A stretch of 64,000 nt of DNA from Carcharhinus amblyrhynchos (Eukaryota), in contig CBDIYR020000003.1 in NCBI GenBank assembly GCA_965287045.1, forward strand, positions 7,998,001 through 8,062,000, given 5' to 3'. Within the stretch, counting starts at the first letter, position 1, and the number at the start of each line of letters is the position of its first letter. This document shows, one piece after another, positions 915 through 3,900 of the stretch. The position numbers were made by a program.

Positions 915-3900
915 TGATCCGAGTGTGGAGGGATTTTTGCAGCTAATATGAAGAAGTCGTGCTGTCAGTAGTTCAGTGGGAATAGGATTGAGGGATCAGG
1001 TTGTGAGTCTCATGGATAAGATGAGCTCAAGAGGATATGAGGGGAGGCAAGAGAGAAACTGGAGAAAGAGATGAGTTCAGACAAAGGGGAGAGTTAAAGG
1101 GGGTTTGTTCCAGTGGGTTAGAGGAAGGGAGGGAAGCAGCAGATTCTCTCAATCGTAGTGACAAAGGTCATGAATTTCTCCTCCATGAGCATTTATGGGG
1201 AGGAGAAGGTGGTGGAGAGACAAAGGGAGACCACTTCAAAAGGAATTCAGTTGTGTTGATGATATTAAAAAGATTCACATTACTGACTCTTTCAGCGAAT
1301 ATCGTTATGTGGTTCCTGTATGCCTGACTGCTGTTTGTCTTTCTCTCTTCCTCACTCGGTCCTTCATTCTTAGTTTTTATTTCTCACACTCCCGTTTTGA
1401 CCCCCCCCTATCAAACGCATTGAATTCGGTCTCAACTCACGTTGATATGCAATGGTGTTAATTATCCCCGAATATTATCATCTTCTGGATTGGCATTGAA
1501 CACAAACAGAGCTGGATTATTGTGTGTGTTGTATTGTGTGCGCGCGCACGTGCGAGCGCATGTGTGTAGTGTTGTGTGTGCATCTGTTTGTGTGTGTTGT
1601 GTTGTGTGTGTTTGTGTGTGTTGTGTATGTGTAGTNNNNNNNNNNNNNNNNNNNNNNNNNNNNNNNNNNNNNNNNNNNNNNNNNNNNNNNNNNNNNNNNN
1701 NNNNNNNNNNNNNNNNNNNNNNNNNNNNNNNNNNNNNNNNNNNNNNNNNNNNNNNNNNNNNNNNNNNNNNNNNNNNNNNNNNNNNNNNNNNNNNNNNNNN
1801 NNNNNNNNNNNNNNNNNNNNNNNNNNNNNNNNNNNNNNNNNNNNNNNNNNNNNNNNNNTTTCACTTTCTATTCTTTCTGCGTATGGGTTTTCTCCAGTTC
1901 TGCCTCTCGATTTTCACTCTGTTGTTCTCTCAGCTGGATGGAATTCGGTGCTCAACGGCTTGCTCTCCTGAAAGAGTCTGAGCAGCTGGAGAAAGCCTAA
2001 CCGAAGAGATACTGAAGCAGATACAGACACTTTAACCGTTGGATGTGTTTAATAGAATGTACATCACATTGCTCGGCGGTTGCAAAATATCACAACTTGT
2101 GTGGAGTCAGAACCTCATATTAGAACGAAGGAGCACTTTTTGTACGGGTCTCTACTGACCTAGTAATGCTGTGTGTCCCAATACACAGTGATACACCGCA
2201 CTGTCAGAGAACTGCGCATAGCGAATGGTTAAAGGAACAGTTCTTGCTGTGTTATCTAAAGTAGCATAAAGCAGCCGCTTCCCAAAGGCAGTCACATTGT
2301 TTCCAGTACTCGTTTTTTCCAATAGATATTGAGGATGTTGCTCTGGGTGCTGAATATACCAGAAGAAAACAGGAGAAGGATGTGATGTCGAATAATTGCA
2401 GTTTAGCTTCACACTCTCTCCGTAACTCACTCTGATACTCGGTGGATCCTGAAACACTGCCTCCGTTTCCTCACTGGCCTGAATAAGAAGGATGAATATC
2501 GATGTCAAACAGAGAAAATGCTGCATGATATCAGAATACAGAACACAGCAGCAATACAGGTTCAGACCCTGAGTAATAGGTTTATAAATCCTGCACCACC
2601 CACCCTCCAACTCAACAGTGGGACTAAATGAACCAAAACCTGAAATGTGAACTTGAATGTATATCTGTGCGACCGATGAGCGGAAATGGCAACTTAGATG
2701 ACAGAATGACAGGTTTTCTGACAGATGTCACTTTCCATCAGCCCTCCAATCAAAACCACTAAAATCAGTGACTTGATCATCACTTTGTTCTTTGTGGAGT
2801 TTGATGCGGGCCAATTAACTTCCCCGTCTCCTGTATTAAGTCAGTGATGAAAACTCAAAGATTCCTTTGGCTGTAAAGCTCTTCGTGAAGTCCTGATGTC
2901 ATGAACGGCGGTATATAAATGGAAGTCTTTCTTTATTACCCTTGAGAGACAGAGTGCGAATCCGAATCAGAAGATGGAATGGAAACGTTTACACTGAGTA
3001 CAGTTTTAACCATAACATCAAACTCAATATCAGGAGTTTCTTTCTCAGTATCTTTCTGACTCTGTATTTCTTGGTGTCACCCTACAGCTCTTCACCTCGC
3101 CAACCCTATCTCTGAACTTATGGTGTCCCTCACCATGTCCCTATACCGGGAAGGCAGATAGTGGGAGAAATATGCAGACAAATTATGCAATGAGAGTAAT
3201 GGAGATTTTTATTGTCTCGTATTCATTCCATGCAAGACGTCGGTAAAGGCTGCAACCGAATAGCTTCCTACGATTAATTTCAGATGCTGATATAATCCAA
3301 AATGTTGGAAAAAATACCAACATGGGAAGATTTGCTATTGTATCTTGTAATCTGGAAGAAAGCAGATGAGATTAGAGAAATAACTGGAGGGGAATATTCG
3401 GCAACACAGATCATACTTACTCATTAAGAGGTTCGAGATGAATAAATGCTAGACGGAAAACAACTAGCGACTTGATTCAGTGACATGTGTACTGAATGGT
3501 AGCAGTGAACCAGAATGTTTGAGTGATTCAGATAGATGACAGAAAATTCAATAAAGAATAAATAAATGTTTGAGCTACATTGCTGGGAGTAAGTTTACCA
3601 GTGCTGCTCCAATTATGTTTGCACAAGGCATATGGAGGTTAGCGAATGCAGTTGATGAAAAGATCAACAATTGTCTTAGAATCCGTACAGTGCAGAAGGA
3701 GGCAATCAGACCCTCCGACTCTGCAGTGACTCTCTGGGAGAGTATATTTCCCAGGTCCGCTCCCCTCCTCACTATCACCCCAAAGATTTATCCTGGTTAT
3801 TTATTCTAACCCACAAATTTCTGAGCAAGTTGGCATGCTCAATGCACCTAACCTGCGCATCATTGGACAGTCGGAGGAAAGGGTACACCCCACCCAGACA

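What the first reader, a model, noticed from the sequence alone, without database searches (positions are those of the whole stretch)
2135..2590. V gene with an apparently intronless leader that still carries its germline RSS
Seen: the other 14 intact V genes here have an 11-20 codon leader exon ending in a phase-1 intron, and most then have 2 nt plus 9 codons up to the conserved FR1 Gln. V1 reads ATG + 16 mostly hydrophobic codons + G|CC + 9 codons to Gln in one continuous frame, which is the spliced layout. A TATA-like TTTATAAA lies ~55 bp upstream, and the start context tgatatcATGca is identical to V17's. Established: leader-V introns are nearly universal in Ig/TCR V genes, and the intronless case I know (marsupial TCR-mu Vmu-j) is pre-joined to J. 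Inference: precise intron loss through a cDNA of a germline transcript, or cDNA gene conversion, leaving a rearrangeable V. Alternative: ttcag at 2483-2479 is an acceptor with a 1-nt insertion, and a decayed ACG-initiated leader lies at 2988-2940.
Basis: partly seen in the sequence, partly recalled or inferred. Interest (0 to 1): 0.75.

Follow-up and report, generated by a model that had tools for sequence, protein, structure and literature searches.

The report
Shark TCR V segment, unsplit leader
One T-cell-receptor V gene segment in this shark-like locus can be read from a start codon straight into the V domain without the usual leader intron, but the stretch that reads as "leader" looks like the tail of that intron shifted by one base, so it may be a new one-exon leader or simply a V segment with a broken leader.

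Summary
On the minus strand, ATG 2526 opens one frame of 117 codons through a V-set, TCR alpha/delta-type domain to a 23-spacer RSS. All 14 other intact V segments have a split leader with a phase-1 intron.

The 48 nt after the ATG look like an intron tail:
- 83% pyrimidine before a CAG that lies 1 nt from the acceptor position used by the other Vs.
- Acceptor score in the 99th percentile of all AGs in the window.
- A composition shared by 13 of 14 intron ends but only 2 of 14 true leaders.

Controls show that open, hydrophobic, ATG-started frames through intron tails arise by chance in 2 of 39 cases.

My best reading (0.55) is a retained intron end brought into frame by a 1-nt shift. Whether that frame now serves as a one-exon leader or V1 is a non-functional V is about even. 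Precise intron loss keeps about 0.2.

One-exon leaders with a germline RSS are already known in chicken TRAV1 and TRGV1, so novelty is modest. No orthologue or transcript could be examined.

The parts
2174..2478 (-). V exon proper (from the base after the acceptor-like AG to the base before the RSS heptamer): L-PART2-like codons, FR1-CDR1-FR2-CDR2-FR3, ending ...DSAVYHCVLG
   Evidence: Pfam V-set E=2e-14. Best PDB matches are TCR alpha and delta V domains. HMM of the window's own Vs gives E=2.9e-38. Cys, Trp and Y.C are present.
2135..2173 (-). Germline RSS: heptamer CACAGCA (2173-2167), 23-nt spacer, nonamer ACAAAAAGT (2143-2135)
   Evidence: sequence
2479..2526 (-). 48 nt that read as ATG + 15 codons in the V frame (MQHFLCLTSIFILLIQ). 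At the same time they form a polypyrimidine tract with 40 AG-free bases and a terminal CAG.
   Evidence: Translation. Pyrimidine 0.83 in the 18 nt before the AG, T 0.47, G 0.09. Composition log-ratio -4.8, i.e. intron-end-like.
2479..2483 (-). Acceptor-like ttcag. The exon would start at 2478, which is phase 0 in the V frame and 1 nt upstream of the phase-1 position used by all other Vs.
   Evidence: PWM built from the 13 true acceptors scores it 7.7, the 99.03th percentile of 8227 AGs. Register comparison.
2526..2533 (-). Palindrome TGATATCA overlapping the A of the ATG; part of the 12-mer shared with the start of the V at 50551
2581..2588 (-). TATA-like TTTATAAA, 55-62 nt upstream of ATG 2526. 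No ATG lies between it and 2526.
2732..2780 (-). Candidate ancestral leader exon: ATG + 15 codons + A (MIKSLILVVLIGGLME), phase 1, followed by GT at 2731-2730 (AAA|gtgaca). It is 1 nt out of frame with the acceptor at 2479.
   Evidence: Found. Donor PWM -5.6, lower than all 13 true donors. Such candidates are common: 66 in the window.
2894..2901 (-). CRE-type octamer TGACATCA, 121 nt upstream of ATG 2780, next to TATATA at 2917-2912
   Evidence: The motif occurs 26 times on both strands of the window, about 0.06 per 300 nt.
2940..2988 (-).
   Evidence: Sequence. No promoter motif within 300 nt upstream. No donor in this stretch scored above 3 with the PWM. Judged unsupported.
2155..2727 (-). 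Stop-to-stop open frame of 191 codons containing V1. It starts right after a TGA (2730-2728) that overlaps the candidate donor.
   Evidence: It is the fourth-longest such frame in the window and the longest holding a V.

Best explanation
V1 is a complete TCR alpha/delta-type V exon with a germline 23-RSS. Its apparent unsplit leader is the retained 3' end of the leader intron, not a leader exon pasted on by intron excision.

The polypyrimidine tract and CAG acceptor are still present at 2483-2479. They sit one base out of register with the phase-1 acceptor of every other V in the window. This one-base shift makes the acceptor phase 0 and brings an intronic ATG (2526) and 15 pyrimidine-rich, hence hydrophobic, codons into the V frame.

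Shown: the layout, the register shift, and the intron-like make-up.

Inferred: that an ancestral split leader lay upstream, with 2780-2732 (CRE at -121) as the best but weak candidate, and that it can no longer be joined in frame.

What the gene does now is open, and I put it at about even:
(a) transcripts that start downstream of the TATA-like box at 2588-2581 are translated from ATG 2526, giving a usable one-exon signal peptide that works like chicken TRAV1/TRGV1; or
(b) V1 is a V with an intact exon and RSS but no working leader (IMGT 'ORF' or pseudogene class), which may still rearrange.
For: Register: 12 of 13 alpha/delta-type Vs have an acceptor AG followed by 2 nt + 9 codons to the FR1 Gln, and the thirteenth has 2 nt + 8. 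V1 has an AG followed by 30 nt, so it is phase 0 where all 14 others are phase 1.

Acceptor strength: 7.7, the 99.03th percentile of 8227 AGs, and within the range of the true acceptors, whose leave-one-out scores run from -2.8 to 15.2.

Composition:
- The 18 nt before the AG are 0.83 pyrimidine. Intron ends average 0.74 +/- 0.05 and leader ends 0.59 +/- 0.09.
- T is 0.47, higher than in all 13 leaders (maximum 0.42). G is 0.09.
- In a leave-one-out dinucleotide model, 12 of 14 leaders score positive and 13 of 14 intron ends score negative. V1 scores -4.8, and only 6.7% of 2227 ATG contexts score that low.
- By direct reading, 40 nt before the acceptor are AG-free, and a branch-like TTGAC has its A 26 nt upstream. 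The branch-point consensus is recalled, not from a call.

Promoter: a CCAAT box lies at -80..-180 in 12 of 13 Vs and a CRE or half-CRE at -80..-161 in 8 of 13. Neither lies at those distances upstream of ATG 2526.

Chance frames exist: 3 of 13 Vs have an in-frame intronic ATG, and 2 of 39 frames give a leader-sized hydrophobic one.

An intact V exon and RSS with a missing leader is a known state. A duck V-delta lacks the leader exon (PMC5278385), and opossum TRMV-OR2 has V + RSS but no leader peptide (PMC2275272).
Against: - The layout equals a spliced message exactly: a 49-nt leader, the same length as V17's, then 2 nt + 9 codons.
- The 12-mer at the start codon is identical to V17's. Only 3 of 2226 other ATGs match any true start that well.
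- 2 of 13 true leader exons (one family) end in an acceptor-like ...ACAG, scoring 3.7 and 7.7.
- V17's true leader is as intron-like in composition (-6.8) as V1's.
- No convincing upstream leader exists. The donor at 2731 scores -5.6, below all 13 true donors. Candidates like 2780 are frequent, 66 in the window. The 2780 candidate also lacks a CCAAT box at -80..-180.
- The V exon carries no disabling change, which is unexpected for an old pseudogene.
- No orthologue, transcript or read data could be examined.
Confidence: 0.55

Rival explanations
1. One reading: precise loss of the leader intron. A spliced germline transcript's cDNA converted the gene, or the intron was exactly deleted in the genome. 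The result is a rearrangeable one-exon L-V segment whose leader (2526-2478) is a former leader exon of the V17 type.
For: - The layout matches a spliced message exactly, with the same 49-nt leader length as V17.
- The 12-mer start context is identical to V17's; 3 of 2226 control ATGs reach that level.
- V17's leader has the same pyrimidine-rich make-up.
- A TATA-like box lies at -55..-62, as in the V at 14804 (TATAAA at -63).
- The V exon and RSS are intact.
- No strong upstream leader exon exists.
- There is precedent for V segments without a leader intron in chicken TRAV1/TRGV1 and opossum TRMVj.
Against: - The leader end would have to mimic a 99th-percentile acceptor 1 nt from the true acceptor position. 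None of the 13 true leaders combines a terminal AG with at least 0.8 pyrimidine.
- The CCAAT and CRE elements that intron loss should have left in place are absent upstream of ATG 2526.
- V1 and V17 are the least related V pair (26% identity). No similarity extends beyond the 12-mer, so shared descent of the leaders is not supported.
- No poly(A) tract follows the RSS in 2134-1900, so V1 is not a retrocopy.
Confidence: 0.2
2. One extra G at 2479-2478 (caGGcc) is an assembly error or a rare allele. The real gene is an ordinary split-leader V: leader 2780-2732, a 253-nt intron, and a phase-1 acceptor. The contiguous frame would then be an artefact.
For: - Removing one base would restore exactly the 2 nt + 9 codon register of 12 of 13 Vs and put the phase-1 candidate at 2780 in frame.
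- A CRE octamer lies 121 nt upstream of that ATG, at the position seen in other V promoters.
Against: - The run is only two bases long, which is not a typical error site.
- The donor at 2731 is weaker than all 13 true donors.
- The chance open, ATG-started hydrophobic frame (2 of 39) and the 12-mer match would both have to be coincidence.
- It cannot be tested here, because no reads are available.
Confidence: 0.07
3. The upstream leader 2780-2732 is spliced in phase 1 to the AG at 2641-2640 (exon start 2639, intron of 92 nt). The long open frame then carries the reading into the V exon, giving a V with an N-terminal extension of about 55 residues.
For: - The exon start at 2639 is the only acceptor-like AG in 2800-2430 with the right phase (offset 1), scoring 3.1, the 94th percentile.
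- It would explain why the V frame is open for 83 codons, back to the TGA that overlaps the donor, against a maximum of 36 in the others.
- A 92-nt intron is typical here; 7 of the 14 split-leader Vs have introns of 80-122 nt.
Against: - The donor is weak.
- The extension has no Ig-like or other recognisable feature and contains a hydrophobic stretch that does not suit an extracellular N-terminus (by reading).
- I know of no precedent.
- Long open frames occur by chance: 12 frames of at least 160 codons in the window.
Confidence: 0.03

Closest known systems
Chicken TRAV1 and TRGV1 (V-alpha-1, V-gamma-1) segments with leader and V in one exon
   Same: These are germline, RSS-bearing, rearrangeable TCR V segments with no intron between the leader and the V domain. 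That is the layout V1 shows. Source: passages in PMC10972964 and PMC8456604.
   Different: In chicken it is a family trait (all TRAV1 members but three, and most TRGV1 members) with expressed members. V1 is a single segment with no relative above 46% identity in the window and no expression data. It also keeps an acceptor-like relic. Whether the chicken genes have one I could not check: no sequences were seen and supplements are closed.
Opossum TRMVj (TCR-mu)
   Same: [quoted passage not shown] Retro-processing or germline intron deletion has been proposed as its origin (PMC2275272 passages).
   Different: TRMVj is already joined to D and J in the germline. V1 keeps its 23-RSS and shows no poly(A) tract.
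V segments with an intact V exon and RSS but a defective or missing leader (IMGT ORF/pseudogene class). Examples: duck V-delta-2.6, opossum TRMV-OR2, human TRGV10/TRGV11 with an unspliced leader intron.
   Same: The V exon and RSS are complete while the leader cannot be joined normally. In V1 the acceptor is out of phase with a phase-1 leader. Sources: PMC5278385 passage; PMC2275272 passage; for TRGV10/11, only the title of Zhang et al. 1994 as cited in PMC6945721 and PMC8456604.
   Different: V1 additionally offers an in-frame ATG with a hydrophobic run directly upstream, so it could escape the defect. Those examples are not described as doing so.
NAR-TcR supporting delta-V segments of sharks (leaderless, spliced to an upstream NAR-type V-D-J). 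Recalled; the source paper PMC1458790 is not held.
   Same: A shark TCR-delta-locus V that has no leader exon of its own and starts at a splice acceptor.
   Different: No Ig-like frame lies on the same strand in the 3 kb upstream of V1. V1's acceptor is phase 0 rather than phase 1. There is no extra Cys in CDR1 (that this is a hallmark is recalled).

Membership tests
TCR alpha/delta V gene segment | V-set Ig domain with first Cys, conserved Trp and Y.C second Cys | tested here: met
   Pfam V-set E=2e-14. LNC, FFWY and YHC are present. Best PDB matches are TCR alpha and delta V domains.
TCR alpha/delta V gene segment | Germline RSS with 23-nt spacer directly 3' of the V exon | tested here: met
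   CACAGCA - 23 nt - ACAAAAAGT. The last two heptamer positions and 2 of 9 nonamer positions differ from the consensus used.
TCR alpha/delta V gene segment | Split leader with phase-1 intron | tested here: not met
   The acceptor-like AG at 2480-2479 is phase 0. The only phase-1 upstream candidate (2780) has a donor weaker than all 13 true donors and is 1 nt out of frame.
One-exon L-V segments (chicken TRAV1/TRGV1 type) | ATG, leader and V domain in one uninterrupted frame, with germline RSS | tested here: met
One-exon L-V segments (chicken TRAV1/TRGV1 type) | The leader is a working signal peptide | tested here: inconclusive
   11 of 16 residues are hydrophobic and IQA|SEE is a possible cleavage site (by reading). 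PDB mature chains begin near residue 20-21. No signal-peptide predictor was available. Frames through intron tails look similar.
One-exon L-V segments (chicken TRAV1/TRGV1 type) | Rearranged transcripts carry the unspliced leader | not testable with these tools
   No transcript or read data. No close protein in either protein collection.
Retro-processed V (opossum TRMVj type) | Pre-joined V(D)J in the germline | tested here: not met
   The RSS is retained.
Retro-processed V (opossum TRMVj type) | Marks of retroposition (poly(A) tail, target-site duplication) | tested here: not met
   No A-run in 2134-1900. No direct-repeat search was run. An N run begins at 1858 and was left as it is.
V with defective leader (IMGT ORF/pseudogene class) | Intact V exon and RSS, but a leader exon or splice site that is missing, mutated or out of frame | tested here: inconclusive
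   The acceptor is out of phase. The upstream leader candidate is weak and not distinguishable from background: 66 such candidates in the window. The in-frame ATG might compensate.
NAR-TcR supporting delta-V | NAR-type V-D-J cluster immediately upstream on the same strand | tested here: not met
   No V-like hit on the minus strand between 2600 and 5530.

The most novel reading that the evidence does not exclude
V1 is a working, rearrangeable shark TCR V segment whose signal peptide is encoded in one exon with the V domain. That would be the first such case outside birds. It would have arisen independently, either by precise intron loss or, as the sequence suggests, by a one-base shift that turned the intron's polypyrimidine tail into a new leader. 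The second route would be a caught-in-the-act example of how one-exon V genes such as chicken TRAV1 could originate.
Probability: 0.4. Interest if true: 0.55.

Novelty: new member of a known kind. Interest (0 to 1): 0.35.

Why it matters
[quoted passage not shown] Exceptions are few.

If V1 is expressed from its contiguous frame, three things follow:
- Loss of the leader intron has happened more than once in vertebrate TCR loci.
- A polypyrimidine tract can be recruited as a signal peptide.
- Annotation pipelines for shark loci would need a one-exon option, as was added for chicken.

If V1 is not expressed that way, it is an ordinary V with a defective leader. It then serves as a warning that intron tails translate into leader-like peptides.

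Tried and rejected
- Homology of the V1 upstream region to the rest of the window. blastn of 4200-1870 found only V-exon matches (at most 64% identity) and an interspersed repeat at 3663-4001; nothing for 2500-3660. Local alignments of -80..+49 around ATG 2526 against the 13 true starts gave nothing beyond the 12-mer: best scores 24-26, against a 95th percentile of 25 for random windows (pairwise alignment).
- Protein relatives. The word-based search found none at near length or longer length. The exhaustive search gave 1345 V-set hits, all at most 47% identical among the best 150. These hits are unnamed and some may be human, so I did not fetch, read or use them. No orthologue evidence was obtained.
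Orthologous shark loci therefore stayed unchecked.
- The ACG leader at 2988-2940: no promoter motif, a poor hydrophobic run, a weak donor. Rejected.
- A phase-0 leader for the acceptor as it stands. The only candidate is ATG 3631 (MPCANIIGAAL, CTG|gtaaac), which needs a 1.1-kb intron and abuts a repeat. Rejected.
- NAR-TcR supporting V: no upstream NAR-type V. Rejected.
- Retrocopy: no poly(A) tract. Rejected.
The hydrophobic fractions stand in for it.
- PMC1458790 (NAR-TcR paper) is not held. Supplementary files, for example the chicken V sequences of PMC10972964, are closed and may bear on whether chicken one-exon leaders keep acceptor relics.
- Spliced models, meaning any leader exon joined to a V exon, were not built or searched. 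Only the contiguous window frame and single exons were used.
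Full report
WHAT IS THERE

The window is a V-segment stretch of a TCR alpha/delta-type locus with segments on both strands.

An HMM built from the window's own V exons finds 14 strong V exons, V1 among them. There is also a VH-like V at 21228-21542 and several fragments.

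V1 lies on the minus strand. ATG 2526 opens a frame of 117 codons that runs without a stop through a V-set domain. Pfam gives E=2e-14, and the best PDB matches are TCR alpha and delta V domains. The frame ends at ...DSAVYHCVLG.

It is followed by a heptamer CACAGCA, a 23-nt spacer and a nonamer ACAAAAAGT. The RSS is therefore germline, and the segment is not pre-joined.

THE OTHER V SEGMENTS

All 13 other alpha/delta-type Vs, and the VH-like V, have a leader exon of 11-20 codons that ends one base into a codon before a GT. Their introns are 80-660 nt long.

In 12 of the 13, the V exon starts with 2 nt + 9 codons up to the FR1 Gln.

V1 read contiguously gives ATG + 15 codons + G|CC + 9 codons. 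That is exactly the spliced layout, with a 49-nt leader like V17's.

TWO WAYS TO READ THE 48 NT BETWEEN 2526 AND 2479

(A) They are a former leader exon, and the intron has been removed precisely.

(B) They are the tail of the leader intron. In that case ...catccttcttattcag (ending at 2479) is the acceptor, one base upstream of where a phase-1 acceptor should be, and the ATG is an intronic ATG that this shift puts in frame.

I tested each reading against controls from the same window.

FOR (B)
- The AG at 2480-2479 scores 7.7 with a weight matrix built from the 13 true acceptors. That is the 99.03th percentile of 8227 AGs, and 4 of the 13 true acceptors score lower in leave-one-out.
- The 18 nt before it are 83% pyrimidine. 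Intron ends average 0.74 +/- 0.05 and leader-exon ends 0.59 +/- 0.09.
- T content is 0.47, above all 13 leaders.
- A leave-one-out dinucleotide model separates leaders (12 of 14 positive) from intron ends (13 of 14 negative). V1's stretch scores -4.8, a value reached by only 6.7% of 2227 ATG contexts in the window.
- Forty bases before the acceptor are free of AG, and a TTGAC lies 26 nt upstream (read; the branch-point consensus is recalled).
- The promoter make-up of this locus is a CCAAT box at -80..-180 in 12 of 13 Vs and a CRE or half-CRE at -80..-161 in 8 of 13. Neither is found at those distances upstream of ATG 2526, where only a TATA-like box lies at -55..-62. Precise intron loss should have left the promoter in place.
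- Frames through intron tails do look like leaders. In 3 of 13 Vs the V frame holds an intronic ATG. In 2 of 39 V-by-frame cases the peptide is 10-21 codons long and at least 60% hydrophobic.

FOR (A)
- The register is exact.
- The 12 bases TGATATCATGCA around the ATG are identical to V17's start. Only 3 of 2226 other ATGs share at least 9 contiguous flanking bases with any true start. One of the other two (35710) may itself be an orphan leader.
- 2 of 13 true leader exons, both of one family, end in ...ACAG and score 3.7 and 7.7 as acceptors.
- V17's true leader is as pyrimidine-rich (-6.8) as V1's stretch.
- No convincing leader exon lies upstream.
  - The best candidate is 2780-2732 (MIKSLILVVLIGGLME, phase 1). 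It has a donor AAA|gtgaca that scores -5.6, below all 13 true donors.
  - It is one base out of frame with the acceptor.
  - It is one of 66 such candidates in the window.
  - Its one distinctive feature is a full CRE octamer TGACATCA at -121. This motif occurs about 0.06 times per 300 nt, and its place matches other V promoters.

AGAINST GIVING THE 12-MER MUCH WEIGHT

V17 is the V least related to V1 in the window: 26% identity, against 46% for the closest V at 14668. Nothing aligns beyond the 12 bases. Shared descent of the two leaders is therefore not supported. The match is either coincidence or a short functional element, since TGATATCA is a CRE-like palindrome.

WEIGHING THE READINGS

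Split leaders are close to universal, and V segments with leader defects are common. Intron loss is rare but real.

The sequence features specific to intron tails (acceptor, register, composition, missing promoter) outweigh the 12-mer in my judgement.

| Reading | Probability |
|---|---|
| Retained intron end with a one-base shift | 0.55 |
| Precise intron loss | 0.20 |
| One-base assembly error or allele hiding an ordinary split-leader V | 0.07 |
| In-phase splice from 2732 to 2639 through the long open frame | 0.03 |
| Unassigned | remainder |

- For use of ATG 2526: the V exon has no disabling change, no ATG lies between the TATA-like box and 2526, position -3 is A, and the peptide has a hydrophobic core and a possible IQA|SEE cleavage site.
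- For a dead leader: such peptides arise by chance, and no signal-peptide predictor or transcript was available.

AN UNEXPLAINED DETAIL

The V frame stays open for 83 codons upstream of the acceptor, back to a TGA that overlaps the candidate donor at 2731. The maximum among the 13 other Vs is 36. The 191-codon frame is the longest V-containing frame in the window.

COMPARISON WITH WHAT IS KNOWN
The literature held here states that chicken V-alpha-1 (TRAV1) genes encode the leader 'within a single exon' and that most TRGV1 genes do too (PMC10972964, passages). [quoted passage not shown]
- For opossum TRMVj, both germline intron deletion and retro-processing were proposed (PMC2275272, passages).
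- V segments with an intact exon and RSS but no leader are described in duck and opossum.
- Human TRGV10/11 with an unspliced leader intron are known to me only from a cited title.
- My searches turned up no report of a one-exon V in a cartilaginous fish. The library lacks most subscription journals, and supplements are closed.

WHAT STAYED UNCHECKED
- Transcripts and raw reads.
- The 150 unnamed V-set proteins, which I did not fetch because some may be human.
- The N run at 1636-1858, which was left untouched.

I took no contig for human. Spliced gene models were handled exon by exon. The joined leader-plus-V sequences were neither built nor searched.

VERDICT

This is a real and neatly described layout. 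It is most likely a one-base-shifted intron tail rather than a cleanly excised intron, and its function is open. If it is functional, it is a new, independent member of a kind already known from birds.

Noticed in passing
window 21111-21580 (+): A V segment unlike the alpha/delta-type ones. It has a 20-codon phase-1 leader, an 85-nt intron, a V exon ending ...GMYLCAKQ (VH-like) and an RSS. It may be an Ig-heavy-like V inside the TCR locus (TAILV-type; that name comes from PMC12227049). Pfam V-set E=5.6e-8.
   Followed up: partly
window 21898-22320 (+): A V-like frame with an RSS (CACAGTG at 22281) but no first Cys, and with the Y.C motif replaced by ...AAVDTVQ*. It is a pseudogene directly downstream of the VH-like V.
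   Followed up: no
window 60219-61145 (+): An open frame of 309 codons that matches rhodopsin-family 7TM receptors (Pfam 7tm_1, E=8.7e-20). It is possibly an olfactory-type receptor gene beside the V cluster. That such genes flank the mammalian TRA locus is recalled.
   Followed up: partly
window 4900-5470 (+): Relics of a V pseudogene on the opposite strand, between V1 and the next V. One is a leader-like ...CCPCSLLIIITLLPGES resembling the leaders at 12483 and 44709. The other is a 3' fragment ...AAVHFCAMEHTLL.
   Followed up: no
window 35698-35725 (+) and 17298 (-): Two ATGs whose flanks match true V start contexts over 10 and 9 bases: 35710 resembles the family at 6091/33910, and 17298 resembles the V at 53300. 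They are possible orphan leader exons.
   Followed up: no
window 57926-58501 (+); 47768-48295 (+); 3663-4001: A reverse-transcriptase fragment (RVT_1, E=5.7e-9), a C2H2 zinc-finger frame and an interspersed repeat with at least 10 copies in the window.
   Followed up: no
upstream regions of the 13 alpha/delta-type V segments: The promoters share a CCAAT box (either orientation) at -80..-180 in 12 of 13 and a CRE or half-CRE at -80..-161 in 8 of 13. TATA-like boxes are rare.
   Followed up: partly
window 2479-2730 (-): The V frame of V1 is open through the whole 83 codons between a TGA overlapping the candidate donor (2731) and the acceptor-like AG. This is longer than in any other V, where the maximum is 36. 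It is unexplained.
   Followed up: partly
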